From sequence record MH494197.1: a stretch of 64,000 nucleotides of DNA; one strand, given 5' to 3'. Made by a program: the position numbers and the translations under genes. The notes under the pieces are model-generated. The model saw nothing but the letters and a program-made list of their open reading frames with translations. It had not been told where the DNA came from and did no database searches. Below, one piece after another: positions 9,757 through 62,724 of this stretch. The first letter of the stretch is position 1. Each line of letters begins with the position of its first letter. The stretch comes from Escherichia phage CMSTMSU.

Positions 9757-9765
9757 ATTAATAAC

Positions 9766-9786
9766 TAAATATATGTATATTAACAA
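9766..9786 (+). promoter_or_regulatory. Conserved 21-nt promoter-like motif TAAATATATGTATATTAACAA, 46 nt upstream of the fibre A start
   Basis: Near-identical copy at 14840..14860 with identical spacing to the fibre B ATG. Confidence 0.4.
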
Positions 9787-9829
9787 GGTCAAATGTATTT
9801 TATGCTTTTGCCTATTTGGAGGGAACTAA

Positions 9830-12800
9830 ATGTACTCGATTAAAACAGATCTAGATATAACTGGTGGTGCAACGGTTGGTAAAGATCTTCTTGTGAAAGG
9901 CGATGCAGTATTCAATAAAAATCTAACAGTTAATGGAACTGTAACTTTTGCTGACGCTGTATTCACTGCAATTGAAGCAGGAACTGTAGACATTTCATCT
10001 ACACTAGATGTTGCTGGTAAAGCATCATTGAATGGTGGAATTGAAGTTCATGGTAATTCCGTAATTGGTAATTTGCCTGTTGGCTCTGATACTGCAACGA
10101 TTAATTCTAATGCACAATTCCAAAGCCCAGTATCAATGGCAGGTAACCTAACACAAACCGCTGGCACTGCTGTACTAAAAGATACCCAAGTGGCATCAAT
10201 GGATGTTCTTGGAACTTCTTCATTTAAAGGTAATATTACTGCTGAAACTGGCACTACCGCAGCATTTGACAAAATAACTGCAACTGATGCAACATTCACA
10301 AACACTGCAACTACTGATATCACATCAACTGGAACTGCAAACTTTAAAGATGTGAATATTTCCGGTACACTAGGTGGAACATTTAGTCTATCTGATGTTA
10401 ATGCAACAACTCTAACTGTTTCTGGTTTAACCAGTCTACAAGGTGGTGTTACATTAGGTTCCAACATTACTGGTGTGAATAGTAGTGCAAACTTCCGTGA
10501 TATTAAAATTGGTTCCAATGCTGCAAACACTAACTACCGTTTGAGCTTTAACTATTCTGCTCCAAGTCTTCGCCCAACTGTAATTCTACAGAACGAAATC
10601 CAATCAGAATTGATGTCTCCAGCTACCCTAAGTGTATTGAAAACTGCATCTTTTGGTGATTCGTCATTATCCACTTTTGGTATTACTGGTAATGGTCTAA
10701 ACAAACTAGATTACCTAACAGTATCTGGTAACTCTGTTCAAGATCCAGCAACTCCACTATTACAAGTAACTTCAGGTAAAACTAAAGTTCATGATTTCGA
10801 AGTAACAGGAACTGCAACTATTCCTAACATTGAAAGTACTGGTACTGCTAATTTTAATAACATCAACGTATCTGGTACACTCGGCGGTACTTTCAGTCTT
10901 GATGATATTGAAGCAAACACTCTAACTGTTTCTGGATTAACTAGCCTTGTTGGTGGTGTAACTTTAGGTGCTGATATTTCCGGTGCTAATAGTACTGCTA
11001 ATTTTAAAGCAGTAAGTTTAGGACAAAACGCAGCCGATGCTAACGTTAAGTATGGTTTTGCTTATTCTGCCCGGTGCTCGTCCAACTGTAATTCTACAAA
11101 ATGAAATTCAGTCTGAACTAGTATCTCCAGCAGTACTAAATGTACAAAAACTGCTACCTTTGGTGATGCATCTCTTGCAACCTATGGTATCACAGGTAAC
11201 GGTCTAAACAAACTAGATTATCTATCTATTACTGGTAATGGTACACAAAGTCCAGCTACCCCACAACTACAAGTAGCTGGTAAATCAGTACTAAATGATG
11301 TTGAATTCACTGGTACTGTAACTGGTCTAACTGTTGATGTGAGTGGACAAGATCTAACTCCTAAATCAGTAGTTGCTGCTGAAGCAATCAAAGGTCAAAC
11401 CCTTGAATCAGTTGGTCAAACCACCGTAGGAACTAACCTACAAGTTGGTGGAACTGCTAATGTTGTTGGTGCACTAACTGGTACTGCTGCTACCTTCACT
11501 GGTGATGTAAGTGCTGCTAAAGGTACTTTCAGTGGTGATGTTAGCGTTACTGGTCAAACTGTAACTGTACGTGATTTAGTAGTAACTGGTACAACTACTG
11601 GTGTAACTGCCCAAGCTGATGTTGATGGTCTTGATATCGCCCCAAATAAAGTTGATGTTACAACAACACTATCTGTTGCTGGGGACACTACTTTAGCTGG
11701 CCTAACTGCTAGTTCAGTAACCAGTACTGGTGATGTTACTGGTGCGTCTGTATCTGGTAATACAGTAACTGCGGCTGGTGCACTATCTGGTGGTTCTCTT
11801 GCAGTAACTGGTGCTGGTTCTATGGCTTCACTAACTGTTCCAAGTATTACTGGTGACACTACTTTTGCTAATAACGTAACTATTACTGGAACACTAACTC
11901 CGAGTAGTATAGATTTAAGCACTACTGATGTAAGTGCTGCTTCTTTAACAACTACTGGTAACGTAACTGTTGGTGGTTCTCTTGCAGTAACTGGTGCTAT
12001 TGATTTGTCTGCTGCTGATGTAGTAACAAAATCAGTTAGTGCAACTAACCCAAGTACATTTGGTGTAATTAATGCATCTTCTGTTGTCGCAACTGGTGAC
12101 GTTTCAGGTGGCACTCTAACTACTACTGGTGCAGCGAAAGTAGGAACACTAACTAGTACTGGTGTAGTATCTGGTTCGCGTTTGTCTTCTGGTACTGCAA
12201 CAATCTCAACTTCTGTAACAGTTCCAACTTTACAAGCTGAAGCTGCTGGTGCTGGTACACTAAATCTAGCAAGTAATGTTGTCGCGGCAAAGATCTAACT
12301 GTCACTGGTGTATTCAAACCTGAAGGTGGTCTTGACCTAACAACTGTTGATATTACTGCAAACTCACTAACTACTACTGCTGATGTTAATGTTGGTGGAA
12401 ACTTAGTAGTTGATGGTACTTTTGACCTAAGTGCTGCTGATGTGTCTGTGAAATCTCTTGCAAGTGCAGAGACAATTACAAGTGCTGGTGTTATTACCGT
12501 TACCGATTCAACCAATACTAGTTCGTTACCTAAAATTACTTCAACTGATGCAACACTCTTTACAGTAAATGCAGGTACTATTAATGCAACTGGCAACAGT
12601 GTACTACAAAGTGTATCAGCTACTCAAGTAACTGCAACTAGTGCTGAATTGACTGGTGTTGGTCTTGGTCTTCAAGTCGATAATGATGCAAACGTTGGTG
12701 GTGCATTATCTGTTGGTGGAATCGCAACTGTTGGTTCTTTAACAACAACTGCTGCTTCTCTTAATATTGCAAAAATACTGCAATCACTGGTGATTTAGCT

Positions 12801-14759
12801 GTATCTGGCACACTAACTGCTGGTTCAATCGACCTAAGCAATACTGATGTAACCGTTAAATCTCTTGATTCACTAGGTAACGCACACATTGCTGGTGACC
12901 TAACTGTAGATGGTGCATTCGACTTAAGTGCAACTAACCTTGTAGCTGCAAGTCTAGCAAGTACTGGTTCTACTACTGTTGGAACTGATCTAGTACTAAC
13001 AACTGGTGTTGTGACTGGTAGCCCAGCTATCTCTGGTAATACAACAATCGGTGGAACTCTTGGTGTAACTGGTGCTGTTAACCTAACTGATATTGTTAAT
13101 ATCGGTAAGAAAGTAACAGTGAGTACTGGTGGTATTCAGGTAGTTGATGGTGGTATCAATACTAACACAATTAACGTTTCTGGTGCTTCTACTCTAGCAG
13201 GAACTTCCATTACTGGAACTTTAGGTGTAACTGGTGCTTCTACTCTAGCAGGTGTATCTGCGACATCACTAACAGTTTCTGGTGACAGTACTGTTCAGAA
13301 ACTAACTGTCCAAGGTGAATTGATCCCACAAGGTGGTCTTGACCTAAGCGGTGCAGACATTACTGCTAATAGTCTAACTACTGCAACAACTATCAATGCA
13401 ACTGGCCTAAGTACTCTAAGTGGTGGTGTTAGTACTTCTACTGTGACTGCATCTGGTCTAGCAACTGTTGGAAGTTTAACTTCTACTGCAAACGCATCAG
13501 TTGGTGGCAATTTGGGTGTAACTGGAACTCTAGATGTTACTGGTGCTACTACTGTATCTTCACTAACAGCTACTGGTGCAGTGAAAACTGGCACAACCCT
13601 AACTGTTGGTACTCCAGTTGGTGAACAACCTGAAACTGTACAGATCATTCCAGATACTTATATTGCTGGTAAATTGCGTGTAATCGGCGGTATTAACGCT
13701 GAAATCGACGTAAGTGGTCAAACACTAGAACCATATGCAATTGAAGCTGCTGCAACACTATCTGCTGTTGGTAACATTACTTCTGGTGCAACCATCGTTT
13801 CTAAAGCTGCAACAATTGGTGATGTTGGTTCACAAAACAACAACCTAACTGTTAATGGTAACGTAGTAACTAATGGTGACTTCACCGTTACTGGTGTACT
13901 AAATGCACAATTGAACCAAGCAGATTCCGATGTAGCTGTTAAATCTTTAACTGCAACTAATAACGTTGCGGCTGGTACTTCAATCACTGCTGGAACATCC
14001 ATCACTGCATCAGGCTTACTAAAAGGTAATTCGTTAGAAGTCACCACTACTGGTTCATTTGGTGGTGCAGTAACTATGTCAAGTGGTGCAAACATCACTG
14101 GTACTGTTGGTATCACTGCTGGTGACCTAACAGTAGGTGGTAATATCTCTGCAACTGGGACTGCTGGATTCGGTGCAACAACCGTTTCTACCATTACAAC
14201 ATCAGGTTTAGCTACACTTGCAAGTGCATCTGTAACTGGTGCTCTAACTGTAGGTGGTACATTAACTGCAAATGGTAACACTGTGATTGGTGATGCTGCT
14301 GCTGATACTTTAACTGTAAATGCAACATCGACATTTAAAGAGAACGCAACATTTGATAAGAACCTAACAGTGACTGGTTCTATTAACACCACCACTGCAA
14401 ACTTCACCACAAACAACATGGTAACTAAGAAATATTCTGTTATCCCTGCTAGTGTTACTGCTTCTACTGCTGCTGTAGGTGGTACTTGGACACCAGATGG
14501 TACTACTAACGTATATCGCTTAACTCTTGACCAAAGTGTTACAATGGATTCCATCGCGGGTCTAATTGGTAGTGGTCAAGCATGTTCAGTGTATATCTAT
14601 GTAACTCCATCTGTTGCTGATACTACTTTCACCTTCGGTGGTGCATACTCTGTAGTTTCTGGTACAGTAAGTGCTGTAGTTGGTCAAACAAGTATTATCC
14701 AAGTAATCTATGATGGTTTCAGTACTGTGTTTGATACCTTCGTTGCACAACGTGTATAA
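9830..14759 (+). CDS. Giant repeat-rich fibre protein A (~1640 aa), reading frame broken at about 11100, 12300 and 12800
   Basis: Track ORFs 9830..11104, 11339..12298, 12442..12798 and 13011..14759 all carry V/T/G/S/A-rich short repeats (xTVxGxxTLxG). RBS GGAGGGA. N- and C-termini are paralogous to fibre B. Confidence 0.6.
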
Positions 14760-14778
14760 CATTTTAAATTAATAATTA

Positions 14779-14806
14779 AAGCCAACTAAAATAGTTGGCT
14801 TTTTCT
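14779..14806 (+). terminator. Rho-independent terminator
   Basis: AAGCCAACT-AAAAT-AGTTGGCTT followed by TTTTCTTT. Confidence 0.6.
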
Positions 14807-14839
14807 TTGTATTAGATAATAGTGTTTTGTGAATTAAAC

Positions 14840-14860
14840 TAAATATAAGTATATTAACAA
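14840..14860 (+). promoter_or_regulatory. Second copy of the conserved promoter-like motif (TAAATATAAGTATATTAACAA)
   Basis: One mismatch to 9766..9786; 46 nt upstream of the ATG at 14906. Confidence 0.4.
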
Positions 14861-14905
14861 AAGATGGGTTATGAATATATAGTTCATCGTTATAGGAGGG
14901 ACTCT

Positions 14906-17900
14906 ATGTACTCGATTAAAACGGATCTTGATGTATCTGGTAATTCCACGGTAGGTAAGGATCTTTTGGTCAAAGGTAATGCAGTATTCAGTAATGACCT
15001 AACGGTTAATGGGGAAGTGTCTTTTGCTAACGCAGTATTCACTGCAATTACCGCTGGTTCTGTGAATGTCACAGGTGCATTGGATGTTGCTGGTAAGGCA
15101 ACCTTATCCGGTGGTGCTGATGTTTCAGGTGCTGCGACATTTGCAGGAAACATTACTGCTGCTGACGGCACAACTGCAAAATTTGATAACTTAGAAGCTA
15201 ATTCAGGATCATTTAATTCTGTTGAATCAACTGATATTACTTCAACTGGCACAGCAACTTTTAAAGATGTAAACATTTCTGGTACACTTGGTGGTACTTT
15301 TAATCTTTCTGATATTAATGCTACAACACTTAATGTGTCTGGTGCTTCAGCACTAACTGGTTCAGTCACATTGGGTGCAAATATCACTGGTCTTGCAAGT
15401 ACTGCAAACTTCCGTGATATTCGTATCGGGCCTAATGAAGAAGGTCAAGCATATAGACTAAACTTTGGTTACACCGTTCGGACAACGACCAACCGTTCTT
15501 CTACAGAACGAAGTTCAATCCGAACTAATGTCTCCTGCTAAGTTGAATGTTCTACAAACTGCAACATTTGGTGATTCTTCACTTTCAACTTACGGTATTA
15601 CAGGTAATGGTTTAAACAAATTAGATTATGTAACTATTTCTGGTAACGCAATTCAATCACCAACCACTCCTTTACTTGAAGTAACTAAAGGTAAAACTAA
15701 AGTTGTTGATTTAGAAGTGACTGGCGTAGCAACTATTCCTAATATCGAAAGTTCTGGTACTGCAAACTTTAACAACATCAACGTATCTGGTACTATTGGT
15801 GGTAGTTTTGATTTAGATGATATCCAAGCAACAACATTATCAGTATCCGGTGCTTCAGCACTAACTGGTGCAGTTACATTGGGTGCAAACATCACTGGTC
15901 TAGCAAGTACTGCAACATTCAAAGCAATCAATTTGGGTCAAAATACCGCTGATGCTAACGTTAAGCTAGGTTTTGCATATACTGCACCTAGTGCACGTCC
16001 AACAGTCTTGTTAGCAAACGAAGTTCAATCTGAACTAATGTCTCCTGCTAAGTTGAACGTTCTACAAACTGCAACCTTCGGTTCTGCTGCACTATCTACC
16101 TATGGTATTACTGGTAATGGTCTAAACAAATTAGATTATCTAACAATTACTGGTAACGCAACACAAAACCCTGCTACTCCACAACTTCAAGTTGGTGGTA
16201 AAGCAATTCTTAATGATGTTGAATTTACAGGTACTGTAACTGGCCTAACTGTTGATGTGAGTGGACAAGATCTAACTCCTAAATCAGTAGTTGCTGCTGA
16301 AGCAATCAAAGGTCAAACTCTTGAATCAGTTGGTCAAACAACTGTAGGTTCATCTCTACAAGTTGGTGGTACTGCAACTGTTACTGGTGCATTATCTGCT
16401 GCCGCTGGTACTTTCAGTGGTGATGTTAGTGGTTCTAAAGGTATCTTCAGTGATAGCGTATCCGGTACAAGTGCAACCTTTACTGGGGATGTTAGCGGTG
16501 ATAACGCAACCTTTAGTGGCGATTTATCTGCTGTAGCTGGCACTTTCAGTGGTGATGTAACCGTAACTGGTCAAACAATCACTGTTAAAGACTTGGTAGT
16601 AACTGGAACTTCAACTGGTGTAACTGCAATCGCTGACGTTGACGGTCTTGATATTGCTCCAAACAAAGTTGATGTTACAACAACTCTATCTGTTGCTGGT
16701 GAATCAACTCTTGCTGGTGTTACAGCAACTTCAATCAATAGTACTGGTGCAATTGCAGGTACTGCAATTTCTGGCTCTACTATTACAGCAACTGGTGAAA
16801 TTTCTGGTGCATCATCTGTAGTAACTGGTCTTTCTAAATCTGGTAGCGTTGAAACTGGTGCTCTAAAGGCATCTTCTGTTGAAACTGCAATCATTAGCAA
16901 CACTGCTGGTGTGTCAATAACAAACAACACTTCAATTGCAGGTAATCTATCTGTAACTGGAACTGTTACCCCGTGCAATTGACCTAAGTACTACTGATAT
17001 TGATGCTAAGTCTCTAACAACTACTGAAGGTGCTAACATTGGTGGTGACCTAGTTGTTGCAGGTACAGTTGATCTAAGTGCTGCTGACGTTGCTGTTAAA
17101 TCTCTAACCAGTACTGGTGCAGTTATTAGTTCTGAAGGTACAGTAAGTAGTGTTCTACCTAAACTTTCCAGTACTGAAGCTAATATTACCACAGTAACTG
17201 CAACCACTGCAAATGCTACCACACTAAATGTAACTGGTACATCAACTCTAGCTGGTGTTAACGCTTCTGGTGCTATTACTTCTGCAACTAACATTACCGC
17301 TACTGGTGTATTAAAGGTGCATCTGTTGAAACTGCGTCAATCAGCAATGCTGATGGTGTAGCAATTAACAATAACACTACAATCACTGGTAATTTGGACG
17401 TATCTGGGACATTGACCCGTGCAATTGACCTAAGTACTACTGATATTAGTTCTAAGTCTCTAACCACAACTGAAGGTGCTACAATTGGTGGCGATCTTGT
17501 GGTAGCAGGTACTGTTGATCTAAGTGCTGCTGATGTGTCGGTGAAATCTCTTGCAAGTGCAGAGACAATTACAAGTGCTGGTGTTATTACAGTTTCGGAT
17601 ACAGTGAATTCTAGCACTCTACCAAAACTAATTACTACTGATGCAACTATTGGTGCTGTCCATGCAGCTACTATTGAAACAACTGGTTCAAGTACACTAA
17701 AACAAGTATCTGCTACTGAAGTAACAGCTACAAGTATTGTACTAAATTCAGTTGGTGAAGGTTTACGTGTTGACAATAATGCAAACATTAATGGTATATT
17801 AAGTGTTAATAATATTACTTCTACCAATGATACTATTGCAATTGCGAAAAGTGCTGCTATTACTGGTGATCTGACCGTATCTGGAACTGTTACCCCGGTG

Positions 17901-20608
17901 CAATTGACCTAAGTACTACCGATATTAGTTCTAAATCCTAAGTACTACTGAAGGTGCTACAATTGGTGGTGACCTAGTTGTTAATGGTTCAATTGATTTA
18001 AGTTCTTCCAATGTTTCAGCAATTACCCTTGCTAGTTCTGGTAATACTACCGTTGGTGGTAACCTAGTACTAACAACTGGTGTTGTGACTGGCAGCCCAT
18101 CTGTATCTGGTAACCTTTCAGTTGCAGGTACTGCGGCAGTAACTGGTGCAACTACCTAACTGATATCGTAAATATCGGTAAGAAAGTAACTGTAAGCACT
18201 GGTGGTATTCAAGTAGTTGCAGGTGGTATTAATACCGACGCTATATTAGTATCCGGTGATACAACTTTAAACAACACTACTGTAAACACTACCTTAAATG
18301 TAACTGGTCAAAGTACAGTTGCTGCACTAAGTGCTGCATCTTTGAATGTATCTGGTGATAGTACTGTTCAAAACTAACAGTTGAAGGTGAATTGGTTCCA
18401 CAAGGTGGTATCGACCTAACTGGTGCAGATATTTCTGCTAATAGTCTTGCAACTGCTTCAACAATCACTGCAACTGGACTAAGCACACTAAGTGGTGGTG
18501 TAAGTACTACTAATGTTACTGCATCTGGTACAGTGAATGCTGGTAGTTTGGATGTTACTAACAACGCAACCGTTGGTGGTAATTTGGGTGTAACTGGTTC
18601 ATTAACTTCTGGACCATTGAGTGTAACAGGCATTGCGAATATTACTGGTGTAACAACTGTTGGTTCATTGGTTTCCGGTGCTGTATCTGGTAGTACTGGT
18701 ACATTTAGTTCAACATTAGGTGTAACTGGTGCAGCTACATTTGACAATGACGTAACTGTTGAAGGTGTATTCACCCCAGCAGGTGGTTTAGACCTAACAA
18801 CTTCTGATATTACAGCTAAGAGTTTGTCAGTATCTGAAACTATTCACTCTGATGGTGCAGCTTCCTTTGGTGGTAACACAACAGTAGGTGGTACATTGGG
18901 TGTAACTGGTGCAGTAACTGCTCCATCGGCAACCCTAAGCGGTACTGGTACTGCACTAGCAGTAACTAATAATGCAACTATTGGTGGTACATTGGGTGTA
19001 ACTGGTCAAGCAACACTTGGTTCTATAGTAACTTCTGGTGTATCTGCAACAAGTGGCTCTTTCAGTACTACTCTTGGCGTTACTGGTGCTGCGACATTTG
19101 GAAACGATGTAACTGTAGTTGGAACACTAACTCCGGTAGCTTAGATCTAACTGGTGCAGATATCTCTGCTAAAACACTAACTCTATCTGAAACATTAAAT
19201 GCGACAGGTAATACTACCCTTGGTGGAACATTAGGTGTAACTGGTTTAGCAACAATTGGTGGAACACTAACGTCTGGTGCAGTAACTGCTCCATCTGCAA
19301 CCTTGAATGGTTCAGGAACTGGTCTAGCAGTAACTAACAACGCAACCGTTGGTGGTACATTAGGTGTAGTTGGTCAAACAACACTAGGTTCTGTTAAAAC
19401 TGGTGCAACTCTAACAGTTGGTACACCATTAGGTGAGCAGCCTGAAACTGTACAGATTATGCCAGACACTTATATTGCTGGTAAACTACGTGTTGAGGGT
19501 GGTATTAACGCAGATATCGATGTTGGTGGACAAACACTAGAACCGTTTGCAGTAATAGCATCTGATTCTTTATCTTCTGCTGGTAATATTACTGCTGGTG
19601 CGGCAATTATTTCAAGTTCTGCAACAATTGGTGAAGTCGGTTCACAAAACAACAACCTAATCGTTAATGGTAACGTTGTAAACAACGGTAACTTCACTGT
19701 TACTGGTGTACTAAATGCACAATTGAACCAAGCAGATTCCGATGTAGCTGTTAAGTCTTTGACTGCAACTAACAACGTAGCTGCTGGAACCACATTAAGT
19801 GCAGGTACTGCAATTACTGCTGGTACTTCCATCACTGCAACTGGATTACTTAAAGGTAATACTTTATTACTACTACTGGTTCATTTGGTGGTGCAGTAAC
19901 TATGTCAAGTGGTGCAAACATCACTGGTACAGTGGGTATTACTGCTGGTAACCTAACAGTGGGTGGTGATATCTCTGCAACTGGCACTGCTGGATTCGGT
20001 GCAACAACCGTTTCTACAATTACAACATCAGGTTTGGCTACACTTGCAAGTACATCCGTTACTGGTAACGCAACAGTAGGTGGAACACTAGCAGTAACAG
20101 GAGCACTAACTGCGAATGGTAACGTAACATTAGGTGACGCAGCGGCTGACGTTCTAACCGTTAATGCAACTTCATCATTTAAAGAAAATGCTGTGTTTGA
20201 TAAGGCAGTAACAGTAACTGGTGAACTAACCACTACTAATGCTAACTTAACTACTACAACAGTAACTACCAAAAGTATGATGTAATCCCAACTCAAGTTA
20301 CATCATCAGTAATTGCTCCAACCGGAACATGGACTCCAGATGGTACAAGTAACGTGTACTTCATCACTCTAGACCAAGATACCACGTTGGCTCCAATTAC
20401 TGGCCTAATTGGTGGCGGTAAAGCTGCATCAGTATACATCTATGTTAAACAAGATACAACTGGTAACAGAAACTTTACAACTGATGGTACTTATGCTGTT
20501 GTTGATGGTGAACTAAACAAAACTGCTGGTAGCGTGACCATTTACCAAGTAATTTATGATGGTGTAAGTCCAGTTACTGATTTGTTCATTGCACAACGTA
20601 CTGCTTAA
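14906..20608 (+). CDS. Giant repeat-rich fibre protein B (~1900 aa), several frame breaks
   Basis: Starts MYSIKTDLDVSG with RBS TAGGAGGGA. Pieces 15465..16982, 17394..17912, 18392..19144, 19303..19899, 19902..20285 and 20354..20608. Shares long near-identical nucleotide blocks with fibre A. Confidence 0.6.
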
Positions 20609-43093: not shown

Positions 43094-43570
43094 TTATTTT
43101 AGAAAGTATAAGTGTTTTTCTGCATTAACCAGTCTGTGGTCAATGATTTCTTTGATAACGTTCCAGTTACCACCGCCTAAATCGGCTCCAATTTTCGGGA
43201 AGTGTACATGAACAGTGCGTTCAACGTTACATAAGTAATTGAGTTGTTTGAAAACATCATCGATTGCATCATAACTCACATACTTAGAACCGTCATTACC
43301 ATAGTACTTTTGGGTAATGCAGTTTGCGATAAGCAAATCATCACTTATAGAAGAATATGAAATTTGTCCTGTTCTTAGAAATCCCATTTCCTTTTCATAT
43401 GCTTTATAATCATCATATGCCATCGGATAACGATTTCTTAGTTCTTTTGCAAAACCCGAACCCATCTTACCCTGTGCATTACAACCATGAGCGATTATAT
43501 GCAACGCGGTTTGATCATCAGTAACAGTGTTGAACAATTCAAACAAATTACCTAGGTGTTCATGTATCAT
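43094..43570 (-). CDS. Macro-domain protein (ADP-ribose binding/processing family)
   Basis: HIIAHGCNAQGKMGSGFA matches the macro-domain glycine-rich ADP-ribose-binding motif (HGCN..G.MG.G.A). Confidence 0.5.
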   Translation of the reverse strand: MIHEHLGNLFELFNTVTDDQTALHIIAHGCNAQGKMGSGFAKELRNRYPMAYDDYKAYEKEMGFLRTGQISYSSISDDLLIANCITQKYYGNDGSKYVSYDAIDDVFKQLNYLCNVERTVHVHFPKIGADLGGGNWNVIKEIIDHRLVNAEKHLYFLK

Positions 43571-43613
43571 TATATTCTCCGAAAGAAAGGACTCTGTAAT
43601 CAGAGTCCTTAAT

Positions 43614-54680: not shown

Positions 54681-54761
54681 TAGTCCAGATGTTACGCGTA
54701 ATCACTCATTTTTAATCCTTTTTTTATTTTTCAAGTTTATCAATAATAGAAGGTGATACTT

Positions 54762-55340
54762 TTACATTGAATTCAGAATCAGGAAAATCTTTAGAAAATG
54801 AATCAATTTGTTCTTGTGAAAGTTCTTCTTTTGTGGAAATAACATTTTAACTAAATTTTTACCACATTCAATTGCTTCATCATACGACATAGTTTCCCAT
54901 GTTCCATGCCAAGTACTAGGTTCATATTCTGTCAGTACAGAAATGAAATCAATATCATCGGGTGTATACCAAACAGCATTTTGATTCCCTGATGGTGCTG
55001 ATTGATTTTTACCTAATAAAACAATTGGCTTTTCATAAGGAATGTTAAATATCAACCCAGATTCTAAGTTAAGAACAGTTTGAATAGATGAACCCTCCAA
55101 TTTTGGAGTAATAGTACCATCCTTAAAGAAAATTTGTACATGACCCAAGAGTGGGGTTTCATATGGTGTAAGTACATTTTCAGAAACTGATGTGGGTTTT
55201 GCCGTTGTGAAAATACCAGATGGGGTGACCATTAATTTATTATCAAAATTCTGATAATGCAATTCACTATCCACATCATAATGATAAATGTCTAGATTTG
55301 GTTGAGATAGTAGTAATTTTGCTAAATCATGAGATTTCAT
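54762..55340 (-). CDS. Hypothetical protein, paralog of the 53463 module
   Basis: MKSHDLAKLLLSQPNLDIYH...TPSGIF; ATG at 55340 with RBS GGAGAAA. Confidence 0.4.
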   Translation of the reverse strand: MKSHDLAKLLLSQPNLDIYHYDVDSELHYQNFDNKLMVTPSGIFTTAKPTSVSENVLTPYETPLLGHVQIFFKDGTITPKLEGSSIQTVLNLESGLIFNIPYEKPIVLLGKNQSAPSGNQNAVWYTPDDIDFISVLTEYEPSTWHGTWETMSYDEAIECGKNLVKMLFPQKKNFHKNKLIHFLKIFLILNSM

Positions 55341-55351
55341 TTTATTTCTCC

Positions 55352-55381
55352 AAAGAAAAGGAGAGTCACAATGACTCTCCA
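55352..55381 (-). terminator. Rho-independent terminator
   Basis: GGAGAGTCA-CAA-TGACTCTCC with a U-run on the minus transcript. Confidence 0.5.
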
Positions 55382-55574
55382 TATATTTTATTGTAAAACT
55401 TTGAGTTTGTAAAGCATTCCTTCACAAAAACTCATAATGTCTTCTAGCGTGTTAGTACTACCATAGTCTTCAGCCTCTTCTAGCATAGCATGAATGGCTT
55501 TACATTGACTAACATATTCTTCAAGAATTGGTACACAATCCTCGATAGGGTAAAACGATAACTGTTACCAGTAC

Positions 55575-59090: not shown

Positions 59091-59279
59091 CTATATTATA
59101 TGTTTACAACATTTTTGAATATGATCTACGAGTTTATACAGTTTAGTGTTTTCATTCTCGTATTCCAAATCAACTTCAACTTTGAATTCTTCTTCAAGTT
59201 CCATGATCATTTCAATCCAGTCAAGCCAATCGAATTTAAATTTTTCCACGACTTCACATTTAGTAAGATGGAAGTTCAT
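59091..59279 (-). CDS. Hypothetical small acidic protein
   Basis: ORF 59091..59279. Confidence 0.3.
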   Translation of the reverse strand: MNFHLTKCEVVEKFKFDWLDWIEMIMELEEEFKVEVDLEYENENTKLYKLVDHIQKCCKHII

Positions 59280-59520
59280 TGATACATCTTTTTCGGATGC
59301 ATTTTGTCGCGACTTGTAATGAATTTGACAATTGCTTTTTCAACGTCAGTTAGTTCACGTGTGCGATATTCTGGTTCAAGATACCATTCGCCATTATTGA
59401 TAGCTTCCAACGAAAGTCTAAGTTCATGCATTAGTTTATAACGATCAGTACTTTTATGGATGCGGTTAACTTCGCGATTCAGTACACGTAGTGCGTCTTT
59501 GATTTGTTCGTTTAGCATAA
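59276..59520 (-). CDS. Hypothetical protein (~80 aa; internal start MLNEQIKDAL likely)
   Basis: The upstream part of ORF 59276..59683 overlaps the next gene; RBS before the internal ATG. Confidence 0.3.
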
Positions 59521-59586
59521 CAATCCTCTTATTTTTTCTGTACCATTGCATTTCACGGATATCTAATAGTACCTTCGTAGCCAACT

Positions 59587-60717
59587 TTATGTTTGGTCGC
59601 TTCGGTAGATGGGTCTTATGATACGCCACATTTCGGATGTAGCCTTTTCGTTGAAATAATCCATAACTTCTTGATACAACCACTTCCCGTTACGAATGTC
59701 CATCAACATAGCAGCATCCGGTCGGTGAACTTGGATGATGCCAGTTTCAAGTGCTTCCTGTGCTGTATTCAGCAGCCTGATTATGCATAGCATGTTTGCA
59801 GTCATAACCGTGGTGTGATTCAAGAATAGCACGTTTGGCATTACGATTCTGCTTCCATTTGTGATAACTCTTACGGTTCTCACTATTTTCTTTGTATTCC
59901 TTTTCATTGAATTTTACAATGAGTTCAGGACGAACTTTCAATTCTTCTGTAGTACGTTCTTTGTTGAAGTAACGTAGTGAACCATCAGCATTCACTGTAC
60001 TTTCATTCGGGTTGATAATTACCCCAAAGATGTTTTCACCGTAATGGATTAGTTCATATCCAGAATTGTAATTCAATAAATTGAAATCACGATCTAATAC
60101 TTTATCAGTACTATAATTATGTACTAAACGTACAAAATGATATTGTTTCAATGCTTGTGTTGAAACTTAATAAGTATCACGCATGTATTTTTCAAAATCA
60201 ATTTTTGTAGCATTGAATGGGTGAAGATTGGATTTATTCAAACGTCAGAATATCATTCGTCAACTGGATGTTCTTCTAAAATTTCATTTAGTTTACGTTC
60301 AGCAATTCGTTCCTTATCGAGCCAGCCGTGGTGATTAGACATACGCTTAACCTGATTGTATGCATATCCACTGTATGAGTGTGCAATCTTTGAACTCAAT
60401 AATTGCTGATTGAATGAGCGTAGATAGTCATAGATTTCAGTACTTTCTACGATGTGTTCCGGTTTAACCCATAGTGATTCAAGAATGTTTGGGTTAGCTT
60501 CAGTATGAACTTAAGTACTGATTGATTTCATAAAATTTAGTATCTTCTTCAGAAGTATCTGAAACTTCCTTAACATTAAAAAAGGAGTTAGGATATATTC
60601 TTTGTTTGCAAGGAAGATACCACGATAATCTGTATCACTTTCTGGTGTGCTTGTGCCATACGCCTGTGAACCAGCTAAGTGTTTCACAATAGTTTGTTCT
60701 AGAAAATTGTTTTTCAT
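59587..60717 (-). CDS. Pol-beta-superfamily nucleotidyltransferase-like protein (~375 aa), frame broken several times
   Basis: N-terminal HLAGSQAYGTSTPESDTDYRGIF fits the minimal nucleotidyltransferase signature hG[GS]x(9-13)[DE]h[DE]h. Track pieces 60511..60717, 59747..60151 and 59587..59907. Confidence 0.4.
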
Positions 60718-61144
60718 AAGTAAATCGTTAACTCCTTTAGAAAACCATTATAGTATCGTTTAAAATCATGATCCAGTACTTGATAGTCATTGTAACTAAA
60801 TCCAAGATTGATGATGGTATCTTCTTGGAAGAATTTCTCTTCATTCATTACTTCGATGGGTTCGTATTCTTTCCCACCTTTATATACTTTGTAAAGAACA
60901 TACCATCATTGTTAATTTCAACGTACATGAAATTATTTTCTGGATCTCGTGGACACACAATGTTTAGTGAACTTGTCCCATTGTTATTATATTCGTATGA
61001 AATAATATCAAAAGAATCGATACCATAACATTTGGACTTTTCTTTGTCACCAAGACTTTTCTATCTGTACTCATATTGCGTATAGTACTGTAGATATCAT
61101 CGATTGTAGTCATAATTAACCACCGTACTTTGACTTATATGTTT

Positions 61145-61537
61145 CTAAAGATAAAGAAATGCGATTTTGCTTTTAATTCTTTCATCAATATCCTTTGAAT
61201 TCTTAACACTTCTGTATACATCAGCTAATAAATTATAATCTTCTTTATTTGAGCTATGTAATGCCCAACCTATATCTGTTTTGATTCGAACATATGCTTT
61301 ATTTGATGTGAAATAAAAATTGAATCCGTTAGACCCATCAAAAATATCATAAGTATTTACCCAATCTCCATAAGGAAAACTCATTGGTACTGACTCATAA
61401 TCAATGGTGATATCCGATAAATTTTTAGAACAGTACTTTACAAAGTGGTAAACAATCGGATCACATTTTGATAATTCGTATTTGTATTCAATGATAGTTT
61501 TTCTATTAGTATCATTGATGGCATATTCTTTTATCAA
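61145..61537 (-). CDS. Hypothetical protein (130 aa)
   Basis: Intact ORF. Confidence 0.4.
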   Translation of the reverse strand: MIKEYAINDTNRKTIIEYKYELSKCDPIVYHFVKYCSKNLSDITIDYESVPMSFPYGDWVNTYDIFDGSNGFNFYFTSNKAYVRIKTDIGWALHSSNKEDYNLLADVYRSVKNSKDIDERIKSKIAFLYL

Positions 61538-61616
61538 TGGACTTTTTGATGATAAGAGTCCATAGAAACGATTCTAATCCAGTTTCATCAACTTTTCTTT
61601 CTTTTGAAAAATGAAA

Positions 61617-62140
61617 TCATTTATATAAACCCTTAATTTTTTGTCTATTATGTATATCATTTTGCTGAATTTTCAAATTAGTAAGATTGTGTCTTACACC
61701 TTCAACGCCACGCATTATTTGTAACATAATTAGTGATTCGTCATATGTTAGAACATTGCTATTATTATCGATATATACTTTCACTCCACTTTCAAGATAA
61801 TCATTTTCTTTGGAGTTAAAGTTTCTAATAAAACTTAACGCCATTTGTTGCATCACTGAATACATATCGTTCCGCACCGTAGAATGTTTTCCACGAAATA
61901 AACCGCCTTCTTCAAACTTCCAACGACTGGATTCATAATCATTAACGTAATCAATGATTAATGGTAGCAAAGGTGTTTGCTCAATTTATATTTTGCTTCT
62001 AAAGAACAGACGATCTTGATCTGTATTGATGATATCTTTAAGTGTGAAACTTTTTGATATAATTTTAAAGATAATTTCATGCCAAATTAAAGTACTGTTT
62101 TGTTTTCCAACTGGGCCAAAAACATATTCATTCCTCATTA
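61617..62140 (-). CDS. Hypothetical protein, one frameshift
   Basis: ORF 61617..61970 extended upstream to MRNEYVFGP. Confidence 0.35.
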
Positions 62141-62344
62141 GTATAAATCAGTAATGTCTTTGTATGCATTAATCTGTTTTTGTTGTAATGAAAGTTCATT
62201 GAGTTTAGTTACCATTTTATCTACACCAACACGTATATAGAAAATAATAAATGAATCTAACTTGCCTAGAGTAATTCTTGAACTGTAAGTTGAAAGTTTT
62301 CTTGCATAAACATAAATTTCTTCTTCACGGTAAACGTTTCTCAA
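62138..62344 (-). CDS. Hypothetical protein (68 aa)
   Basis: Intact ORF. Confidence 0.3.
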   Translation of the reverse strand: MRNVYREEEIYVYARKLSTYSSRITLGKLDSFIIFYIRVGVDKMVTKLNELSLQQKQINAYKDITDLY

Positions 62345-62724
62345 TCAGCAAGTTTTCCACACCATTCGGCTCATAATCAATTTCGAACTCTACGCCTATC
62401 ACAGTATCTTGAATGATATCAGTATATGAACCACCGAAAAATACTCTCTTGGTTTGGCTCTCCAACGAGGACTAAATGGGTCAGATGCGTATTCTTTAAA
62501 AATTTGTAAAAGGACATTTTACTGAGCATATATTTCATCTCAATTAGTGCTTTGCGGTCATCATCAGTTTTAAACTCTGCTTTGAGCGATGGACTTTTAC
62601 ACGCTTAACTAAATTGTTGTACATCTTTAATGTACGTTGGTCTTTCATTTCTTGGATTTTGTGACGCTTTGGTGGTAGTAAAGATTTGACCATAATTTCC
62701 TCCTGTATTTTCTAGCATTATACA

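What the first reader, a model, noticed from the sequence alone, without database searches (positions are those of the whole stretch)
59587..60717. Pol-beta-type nucleotidyltransferase-like gene of unknown substrate
The N-terminus GSQAYGTSTPESDTDYRGIF matches the minimal nucleotidyltransferase signature (GS...D.D), but the ~300 residues that follow match nothing I recognise. Minimal nucleotidyltransferases in phages may be nucleic-acid end modifiers, signalling-nucleotide synthases or antitoxin-like proteins. The gene is broken by several frame changes, so the true domain architecture is uncertain.
Basis: inference. Interest (0 to 1): 0.45.

Follow-up and report, generated by a model that had tools for sequence, protein, structure and literature searches.

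The report
Known phage RlaP RNA-repair nucleotidyltransferase gene
This is the ordinary, already annotated RlaP-family RNA-repair nucleotidyltransferase of an Asteriusvirus-type E. coli jumbo phage, and its "broken" reading frame is a sequencing or assembly artefact that affects the whole window.

Summary
The motif is real. On the minus strand, starting at 60717, the gene begins MKNNFLEQTIVKHLAGSQAYGTSTPESDTDYRGIF. The window is about 98.5% identical to Asteriusvirus jumbo coliphages (WPEC5, Ecwhy_1, vB_Ec-M-J). In those genomes the orthologue is an intact 412-aa ORF annotated "nucleotidyltransferase, RlaP superfamily".

The intact protein matches Pfam RlaP (PF10127) at 63 bits against a cutoff of 23, and phrog_388 over its full length (E 2.7e-75). 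[quoted passage not shown] A subfamily-specific insertion of about 180 aa lies between them. G16, S17, D28, D30 and D59 are invariant in 61 homologues.

The frame breaks are seven window-specific deletions totalling 50 nt. Across the window there are 303 deletions against 7 insertions relative to WPEC5, mostly in homopolymers. They also disrupt the tail sheath and tail tube genes, so they are technical errors, not pseudogenisation.

The true gene span is 60717-59529. The closest complete relative also encodes T4-type Pnkp and Rnl1 about 36 kb away.

Most likely function, inferred from published RlaP biochemistry: adding 1-2 nucleotides to damaged tRNA 3' ends before ligation. This is already known and of low interest.

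The parts
59529..60717 (-). RlaP-family nucleotidyltransferase gene. It occupies 1189 nt in the window against 1239 nt (412 codons plus stop) in intact orthologues. The window copy carries seven deletions totalling 50 nt.
   Evidence: megablast to WPEC5 and others at 98.5% identity, annotated 'nucleotidyltransferase, RlaP superfamily'; tblastn map; base-level map; Pfam PF10127 63.3 bits; phrog_388 E 2.7e-75
60331..60717 (-). N-terminal Pol-beta NTase domain (aa 1-130). It contains G16-S17 (60672-60667), D28 (60636-60634), D30 (60630-60628) and the third catalytic Asp D59 (GAT, 60544-60542). As written in the window, D59 lies in a shifted frame.
   Evidence: Pfam RlaP match at aa 14-131; invariant columns; hhalign to a compact RlaP and to T4-type NrdC.11 aligns D59 with their Asp; coordinates
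60507..60584 (-). Segment between a 1-nt deletion (T-run, 60584/60583) and a 2-nt deletion (60508/60507). As written, aa 47-71 are out of frame and contain a stop codon.
59834..60330 (-). Subfamily-specific insertion of about 180 aa (aa 131-309): a helical extension followed by a beta-rich subdomain. The segment aa 139-199 is mostly absent from the 22 shorter (<380 aa) homologues in the alignment. In the window the insertion carries the 34-nt deletion (60248/60247, aa 158-169) and the 6-nt deletion (60172/60171).
   Evidence: hhalign gap against the 262-aa RlaP; occupancy analysis; secondary structure of the AF2 model; no Pfam or PDB sequence match; the insertion profile found 92 representative clusters in 1.84 billion proteins
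59532..59833 (-). C-terminal helical domain of RlaP (aa 310-412) with invariant R310, E314, D320, K322, H326, R329, R347, D349 and R357. In the window it carries 2-nt (59783/59782), 4-nt (59643/59642) and 1-nt (59538/59537) deletions.
60714..60848 (-). 3' part of the upstream gene (133 aa in WPEC5, phrog_22376, function unknown). Its stop overlaps the NTase start codon (ATGA), which suggests translational coupling.
59091..59518 (-). Downstream gene with a degenerate acyl-carrier-protein-like C-terminal domain (138 aa in WPEC5). Its start lies 10 nt after the NTase stop, behind a GAGGA ribosome-binding site. It is also frameshifted in the window.

Best explanation
The locus is the RlaP-family (PF10127, 'RNA ligase-associating Pol-beta') nucleotidyltransferase gene of an Asteriusvirus-type E. 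coli jumbo phage.

Shown here:
- Family membership.
- The conserved catalytic motif G16-S17 / D28-x-D30 / D59.
- A two-domain RlaP core (NTase domain plus C-terminal helical domain) split by a subfamily-specific insertion of about 180 aa.
- Strong purifying selection.
- The apparent frameshifts are window-wide deletion errors, not pseudogenisation.

Inferred from published biochemistry of bacterial RlaPs and from the phage's gene content: the enzyme uses Mn2+/Mg2+ bound by the three aspartates to add one or two untemplated NMPs to the 3'-OH of broken RNA. The likely substrates are tRNA 5' halves that have lost a nucleotide after attack by host anticodon nucleases of the RloC type. The order of events would be that the phage's T4-type Pnkp first heals the ends, RlaP then adds the nucleotide(s), and the phage's Rnl1 ligase seals the break. 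The result would be to keep translation running during infection.
For: Identity and annotation:
- 98.5% nucleotide identity to WPEC5, Ecwhy_1 and vB_Ec-M-J, where the orthologue is an intact 412-aa 'nucleotidyltransferase (RlaP superfamily)'.

Family membership:
- Pfam PF10127 at 63.3 bits against a cutoff of 23.
- phrog_388 over the full length, E 2.7e-75.
- 574 homologues found; all but one of the 120 listed carry PF10127.
- hhalign to a 262-aa full-length RlaP gives probability 99.2%, E 8.6e-20, and covers both halves.
- hhalign to T4-type NrdC.11 gives probability 97.5%. PMC12776372 lists T4 NrdC.11 as an RlaP.

Catalytic residues and selection:
- G16, S17, D28, D30 and D59 are invariant in 61 sequences with 39-92% identity to the first sequence.
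- dN/dS is 0.05 between the WPEC5 and PBECO4 orthologues.

Structure:
- The AF2 model has pLDDT 91.7, and its best PDB matches are NTases: ANT(4'), HalB and 3c18.

Frame breaks are errors:
- 303 deletions against 7 insertions across the window, with most 1-nt deletions in homopolymers of 4 or more.
- Frame-disrupting indels also occur in the tail sheath (6), tail tube (4) and a virion structural gene (10).
- All seven deletions in the gene are absent from the two relatives aligned.

Repair context:
- WPEC5 encodes Pnkp (AAA_33 + HAD_PNKP) and Rnl1 (RNA_lig_T4_1 + T4_Rnl1_C) on the same strand, about 36-38 kb away.
- A related jumbo-phage contig has Thg1 1.6 kb upstream of its RlaP.
- Some relatives are fused to an RNase T-type 3'-5' exonuclease, which points to a polynucleotide 3' end as the substrate.

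Literature:
- PMC12776372: PfRlaP and PaRlaP add 1-2 NMPs to RNA 3'-OH, prefer Mn2+, do not act on DNA or protein, and their products suit 5'-phosphate ligases.
- PMC7824862: RlaP is the most prevalent NTase in jumbo phages and its distribution mirrors that of RNA ligases.
Against: - No member of this insertion-bearing phage subfamily has been assayed. The characterised enzymes are compact Pseudomonas RlaPs from another sequence cluster.
- The Pfam model aligns only to the N-terminal half (profile positions 25-144 of 249). The C-terminal half was recovered only by profile-profile comparison.
- The gene is not next to an RNA ligase. Pnkp and Rnl1 are about 36 kb away and outside the window, and no tRNA genes occur in the window.
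- The 34-nt and 6-nt deletions are not homopolymer errors. Taken alone, they could be real.
Confidence: 0.85

Rival explanations
1. The gene is a real pseudogene in this particular phage. The seven deletions are true mutations that inactivated a dispensable accessory gene.
For: As written, the window sequence gives a 68-aa product that lacks D59. The local indel density of 8.1 per kb is at the high end for the window. Two deletions (34 nt and 6 nt) are not in homopolymers.
Against: The same deletion-biased pattern (303 deletions, 7 insertions) runs through the whole 64 kb. It frameshifts the tail sheath, tail tube and other virion genes, which no viable phage could tolerate. Neighbouring genes have equal or higher indel density, 5-11.6 per kb. 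Every close relative listed has an intact 412-aa ORF, and dN/dS is 0.05.
Confidence: 0.04
2. The protein is an RlaP homologue, but the ~180-aa insertion has redirected it to another task. Possibilities are tailing or marking of phage or host RNAs other than tRNA, addition of nucleotides to DNA ends, or synthesis or destruction of nucleotide signals in counter-defence.
For: The insertion (aa 131-309) has no detectable homologue outside this subfamily. The gene sits among nucleotide-metabolism and unknown genes, not next to a ligase. Among solved structures, a top match is Hailong HalB, an oligodeoxyadenylate-making NTase. PfRlaP accepts dATP (PMC12776372).
Against: Both RlaP core domains and the cleft residues are conserved. 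There are no PADLOC matches. The structural matches to HalB and ANT are weak and reflect the shared fold (E about 0.02, 11-17% identity). The genome carries the full T4-type heal-and-seal pair, and T4 itself has the same dispersed arrangement, with NrdC.11 apart from pseT and rnlA. The fusions seen in relatives are to an RNase T-type 3' exonuclease and not to signalling domains.
Confidence: 0.1
3. It is a minimal-nucleotidyltransferase (MNT) antitoxin-like protein or a CD-NTase/cGAS-type signalling synthase.
Against: The protein has 412 aa, whereas MNTs are much smaller (the MNT chains matched have about 100-150 aa). The HEPN-like match is to its own C-terminal helical domain, as in kanamycin-NTase-type enzymes. 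No HEPN toxin gene was found in the six neighbours scanned. There is no PADLOC or CD-NTase family hit.
Confidence: 0.01

Closest known systems
Orthologous 'nucleotidyltransferase (RlaP superfamily)' genes of Asteriusvirus jumbo coliphages (WPEC5 XUI95592.1, vB_Ec-M-J WGM49483.1, PBECO4 YP_009150380.1)
   Same: Same gene at the same genomic position, with the same flanking genes. Nucleotide identity to WPEC5 and vB_Ec-M-J is 98-99%. The translated segments that remain in frame are essentially identical to the 412-aa protein.
   Different: The window copy lacks 50 nt in seven places, because of sequence errors.
RlaP, Pfam PF10127: Pseudomonas fluorescens and P. aeruginosa RlaP (PMC12776372). Family named by Burroughs & Aravind 2016.
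   Same: Pol-beta NTase domain with three catalytic aspartates, plus a C-terminal helical domain. The Pfam score is above the gathering threshold. Association with RNA repair enzymes holds at genome level.
   Different: The phage protein carries an insertion of about 180 aa between the two domains and belongs to a different sequence cluster. It is not in an RtcB/RtcA operon. The partner ligase is a 5'-phosphate Rnl1 and not RtcB. The activity of this subfamily is untested.
Bacteriophage T4 NrdC.11 (T4-type orthologue from phage AR1, 337 aa)
   Same: A phage RlaP with an insertion at the same position. The same trio is encoded, dispersed in the genome: RlaP, Pnkp (PseT) and Rnl1. hhalign probability is 97.5%.
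   Different: Only about 26-28% identity. T4's insertion is shorter and aligns poorly. The function of NrdC.11 is also unproven.
Kanamycin nucleotidyltransferase ANT(4') and Hailong HalB (nearest solved structures)
   Different: Only 11-17% identity and no family-level sequence match. They have different substrates (aminoglycosides; dATP oligomerisation). The resemblance is at fold level only.

Membership tests
RlaP (Pfam PF10127) | Sequence match to the PF10127 profile above its gathering score | tested here: met
   63.3 bits against a cutoff of 23, E 3.8e-17, aa 14-131, on the intact orthologue. That orthologue is identical to the window translation wherever the window is in frame. All but one of the 120 listed homologues carry PF10127.
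RlaP (Pfam PF10127) | Pol-beta NTase signature: hG[GS], DxD and a third catalytic Asp | tested here: met
   G16, S17, D28, D30 and D59 are invariant in 61 homologues. D59 aligns with the Asp of a compact RlaP and of T4-type NrdC.11. The codons are present in the window at 60672-60667, 60636-60628 and 60544-60542.
RlaP (Pfam PF10127) | C-terminal helical domain that forms the substrate cleft with the NTase domain | tested here: met
   hhalign aligns aa 310-405 to residues 158-254 of a 262-aa RlaP that itself matches the whole Pfam profile. The model is all-helical over aa 308-409.
RlaP (Pfam PF10127) | Genomic association with RNA ligase or other RNA repair genes | tested here: inconclusive
   There is co-occurrence in the genome: the closest complete relative has Pnkp and Rnl1. 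They lie about 36-38 kb away and outside the window, so the association is not operonic. A related phage has Thg1 1.6 kb upstream of its RlaP.
RlaP (Pfam PF10127) | Adds 1-2 NMPs to RNA 3'-OH, Mn2+-preferring (PMC12776372) | not testable with these tools
   This needs biochemistry on the purified 412-aa protein.
MNT antitoxin (HEPN-MNT minimal nucleotidyltransferase) | Small single-domain NTase encoded next to a HEPN toxin | tested here: not met
   The protein has 412 aa in several domains. The six neighbours scanned (five upstream, one downstream) have no HEPN or other Pfam match, and there is no PADLOC hit.
CD-NTase / cGAS-like signalling synthases | Match to CD-NTase family profiles, with a CBASS-like context | tested here: not met
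   No Pfam or PADLOC match apart from RlaP. The only Foldseek hit to a CdnE has E 0.67.
CCA-adding enzyme / poly(A) polymerase class II | Match to the PolyA_pol head domain with tRNA-binding body and tail domains | tested here: not met
   No such Pfam match at E <= 0.1.

The most novel reading that the evidence does not exclude
The ~180-aa insertion (aa 131-309) was detected in only 92 representative clusters among 1.84 billion proteins, in all checked cases within RlaP-type proteins. It could be a dedicated substrate-recognition module. For example, it might dock the anticodon stem of a cleaved tRNA, or bias which nucleotide is added. That would make the phage subfamily (phrog_388 and the T4 NrdC.11-like proteins) a specific antidote to wobble-excising anticodon nucleases such as RloC, as opposed to a generic RNA 3'-end tailer.
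Probability: 0.25. Interest if true: 0.5.

Novelty: already known. Interest (0 to 1): 0.1.

Why it matters
For the scan, the main value is negative. The gene already has a family name and a plausible, partly tested biochemical role, and its "several frame changes" are a data-quality problem. That problem affects the whole window, so other "frameshifted" or "pseudogene" findings from this window should be discounted.

Biologically, the gene adds one more example to a known picture. Jumbo coliphages carry the trio of RlaP, Pnkp and Rnl1 that T4 also has, presumably to undo host tRNA-cleaving defences.

The only open point is the uncharacterised insertion module of the phage subfamily. It would be worth a biochemical look, but it is not a surprise.

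Tried and rejected
- Sequence search of the intact protein and of the family profile against PDB chains found nothing meaningful. The PfRlaP structure described in PMC12776372 is not in the copies searched.
- Pfam on the isolated insertion and on the isolated C-terminal segment gave no significant family. The insertion-only profile against PDB sequences found nothing.
- NCBIfam gave no useful hit for the NTase. PADLOC gave none.
- ARAGORN found no tRNA genes in the window or in 122 kb of the WPEC5 genome around it.
- I looked for a conserved operon partner. The upstream 133-aa gene (phrog_22376) and the downstream ACP-like gene are not conserved next to more distant RlaP homologues, so I dropped the idea of a dedicated partner.
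- The long relatives (660-760 aa) at first looked like informative domain fusions. At least one carries a LAGLIDADG domain, and five more match what looks like an intein-like stretch of the long phrog_85 profile, so most appear to be intein-bearing. Three are RNase T exonuclease fusions.
- The Burroughs & Aravind 2016 paper could not be retrieved. What I say about it is taken from PMC12776372 and PMC7824862.

Full report
**What is in the sequence.** On the minus strand, an ORF starts at 60717 and reads MKNNFLEQTIVKHLAGSQAYGTSTPESDTDYRGIFLANKEYILTPF. It then leaves the frame. Further pieces of one protein appear in the other two minus-strand frames, down to about 59530. The stated end, 59587, is only the stop codon of a frameshifted fragment.

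**Where the window comes from.** A 2-kb piece around the gene matches eight Escherichia jumbo phages at 96-98.5% identity over its full length: WPEC5, Ecwhy_1, fEgEco12, EC.P1, WPEC3, Turkey3, vB_Ec-M-J and TH47. It matches other phages, including PBECO4, at about 80-82%. vB_Ec-M-J and PBECO4 are classified in the genus Asteriusvirus. PBECO4 has a 410-aa version.

**The frame changes are errors.** Base-level alignment to WPEC5 and vB_Ec-M-J shows seven deletions in the window copy:
- 1 nt at 60584/60583, in a T-run
- 2 nt at 60508/60507
- 34 nt at 60248/60247
- 6 nt at 60172/60171
- 2 nt at 59783/59782
- 4 nt at 59643/59642
- 1 nt at 59538/59537

They total 50 nt. There are no insertions, and both relatives agree with each other at every one of these sites.

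The pattern is not local. Across the whole window aligned to WPEC5 there are 303 deletions against 7 insertions, about 4.8 indels per kb. About 63% of the 1-nt events lie in homopolymers of four or more bases.

Frame-disrupting indels also hit genes no phage can lose: six in the tail sheath gene, four in a tail tube gene, and ten in a virion structural gene. Neighbouring small genes have indel densities of 5-11.6 per kb, against 8.1 per kb in this gene.

Intact orthologues are abundant. There are 31 protein clusters of exactly 412 aa at 98% identity or more. The gene is also under strong purifying selection, with dN/dS of 0.05 between WPEC5 and PBECO4. I conclude that the breaks are a deletion-biased consensus artefact typical of uncorrected long-read assemblies. 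The corrected gene spans 60717-59529.

**What the protein is.**
- The intact orthologue matches Pfam PF10127 (RlaP, "RNA repair pathway DNA polymerase beta family") at 63.3 bits against a gathering score of 23, over aa 14-131.
- It matches phrog_388 "nucleotidyltransferase" over its full length, E 2.7e-75.
- A database search found 574 homologues. All but one of the 120 listed carry PF10127.
- tblastn finds relatives in 1078 phage records, including the nrdC.11 gene of T4-like phages.
- In an alignment of 61 homologues with 39-92% identity to the first sequence, G16, S17, D28, D30 and D59 are invariant. So is a set of basic, acidic and histidine residues in the C-terminal third: R306, N307, R310, E314, D320, K322, H326, R329, R347, D349 and R357.
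- A profile comparison with a compact 262-aa phage RlaP aligns aa 6-130 to its N-terminal half and aa 310-405 to its C-terminal half, with probability 99.2% and E 8.6e-20. That compact protein itself covers the whole Pfam profile.

The "~300 residues that follow" are therefore an insertion of about 180 aa (aa 131-309) plus the canonical RlaP C-terminal helical domain. D59 aligns with the third catalytic Asp of both the compact RlaP and T4-type NrdC.11. E64 is conserved in all 61 aligned homologues but not in those two more distant RlaPs.

**Structure.** An AlphaFold2 model built on the 61-sequence alignment is confident (pLDDT 91.7, pTM 0.81). It shows four parts: an alpha/beta N-terminal domain, a long helix with a helical extension, a beta-rich middle part, and a helical C-terminus.

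Against predicted viral structures, many "nucleotidyltransferase" proteins of large phages and giant viruses match.

**The insertion.** It has no Pfam match and no PDB sequence match. An insertion-only profile found just 92 representative clusters among 1.84 billion proteins. Most full-length hits have 320-430 aa and carry the match in the middle of the protein. The 13 hits checked against Pfam or PHROGs are all RlaP-type.

I scanned 11 of the 660-760-aa relatives. One carries a LAGLIDADG domain. Five more contain an extra stretch of about 330 aa that matches part of the 866-position phrog_85 'thymidylate synthase' profile; I read that stretch as intein-like, which is an inference. Three others (P0168, P0174, P0188) are fused to an RNase T-type 3'-5' exonuclease. 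Pairing with a 3' exonuclease fits a substrate that is a polynucleotide 3' end.

**Context.** All genes in this part of the window are on the minus strand. The upstream 133-aa gene (phrog_22376, function unknown) overlaps the NTase start codon by ATGA. Ten nucleotides downstream lies a 138-aa gene with a weak acyl-carrier-protein-like C-terminus.

No RNA ligase, kinase or tRNA gene lies in the window. The closest complete relative does encode, 36-38 kb further on the same strand, two relevant enzymes. One is a T4-type polynucleotide kinase-phosphatase (AAA_33 + HAD_PNKP). The other is an Rnl1 ligase that includes the T4 Rnl1 C-terminal domain.

A more distant jumbo-phage contig has Thg1 1.6 kb upstream of its RlaP. 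A paper on another Asteriusvirus reports an RNA ligase and eight tRNAs (PMC12805682).

**Mechanism.** Family membership and conservation of the catalytic residues are shown here. The activity is inferred.

PMC12776372 shows that two Pseudomonas RlaPs add one or two NMPs to RNA 3'-OH ends. They prefer Mn2+ and cleaved-tRNA mimics, and they do not act on DNA or protein. They can restore aminoacylation of a tRNA that had lost a nucleotide. The authors note that the 3'-OH product suits 5'-phosphate ligases. PMC7824862 states that RlaP is the most prevalent NTase of jumbo phages and that its distribution tracks that of RNA ligases.

The most likely role here is therefore as follows. After a host anticodon nuclease cuts a tRNA, and in RloC-type attacks removes a nucleotide, Pnkp heals the ends. 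RlaP then refills the 3' end, and Rnl1 seals the break. I put family membership at about 0.95, and the combined statement (membership, artefactual frame breaks, RNA 3'-end addition in repair) at 0.85. The tRNA-repair role specifically is nearer 0.6, because no insertion-bearing phage member has been assayed.

**Rivals.**
- A true pseudogene is very unlikely, given the window-wide error pattern.
- A diverged function conferred by the insertion cannot be excluded (about 0.1).
- An MNT antitoxin or a CD-NTase signalling synthase is not supported. The protein is too large, no HEPN partner was found in the six neighbours scanned, and there are no PADLOC or CD-NTase hits.

**Verdict.** The motif and the frame breaks are real features of the string, but the end coordinate and the reading of the breaks are wrong. 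It is an already annotated member of a named family that has been partly characterised biochemically. Novelty is "already known", and interest is low at 0.1. The only residual open question is what the subfamily-specific insertion does.

Noticed in passing
window 1-64000: The whole window carries deletion-biased indels relative to its closest relative: 303 deletions against 7 insertions, about 4.8 per kb, mostly in homopolymers. They frameshift even the tail sheath, tail tube and virion structural genes. Any other 'frameshift' or 'pseudogene' finding from this window is probably the same artefact.
   Followed up: yes
window 59091-59518 (-); L001 5736-6152: The gene just downstream has a weak acyl-carrier-protein-like C-terminal domain (TIGR00517 at 25 bits, below its cutoff; phrog_5934). 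The motif that normally holds the phosphopantetheine-attachment serine, DSL in E. coli ACP (from my own knowledge), reads DWL here. It may therefore be a degenerate ACP fold that cannot be modified.
   Followed up: partly
proteins P0121, P0124, P0125, P0132, P0136, P0149, P0161 (homologues): Several RlaP homologues of about 680-760 aa contain an extra stretch of about 330 aa, starting near the invariant W-K-x-N-R-N motif at the end of the insertion. One matches LAGLIDADG_3. Five (P0136 was not scanned) match part of the 866-position phrog_85 'thymidylate synthase' profile, which I take to be an intein-like stretch. These look like intein-bearing RlaPs, which would suggest that this motif is functionally critical.
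   Followed up: partly
proteins P0168, P0174, P0188: RlaP homologues carrying the same insertion are fused at the C-terminus to an RNase T-type DEDD 3'-5' exonuclease. This pairs a 3'-end trimming activity with a 3'-end adding activity.
   Followed up: partly
L009 5641-6384: In a related jumbo-phage contig, a Thg1-family gene (a 3'-5' nucleotide-adding enzyme for tRNA 5' ends) lies 1.6 kb upstream of the RlaP homologue. This three-gene block is absent from the window and from WPEC5.
   Followed up: no
window ~60850-62400 (-); L001 2486-4086: Three tandem paralogous genes of 169-188 aa (phrog_18641 and phrog_7868, which cross-match each other) lie a short way upstream of the NTase gene, separated from it by the 133-aa gene. 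Their function is unknown.
   Followed up: no
window 54710-55342 (ORF 54762-55382, -): A segment of about 630 nt encoding a 206-aa hypothetical protein is absent from WPEC5. It is present at 99% identity or more in Ecwhy_1, fEgEco12 and EC.P1. It appears to be a variable accessory gene within the genus.
   Followed up: partly
window ~9760-20450: Two adjacent very large genes match each other at 73-88% nucleotide identity over several kilobases. Their WPEC5 equivalents are CDS0403 ('colanic acid-degrading protein') and CDS0404. They are paralogous tail-fibre or depolymerase-like duplicates.
   Followed up: no
BFVD entries A0A2Z5HFQ2 (432 aa) and A0A2Z5HJ75 (134 aa): In at least one deposited phage proteome, the 99-100% identical orthologue seems to be represented by two separate entries. 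This suggests a similar split or mis-call of the gene in another genome record.
   Followed up: no
window ~43100-43600 (-); L004 7385-7861: A Macro-domain-like protein (Pfam Macro at 20.2 bits, just below the cutoff of 22) and several Nudix hydrolases lie in the same window. PMC7824862 links such enzymes in jumbo phages to ADP-ribose processing and to NAD-dependent RNA repair.
   Followed up: no
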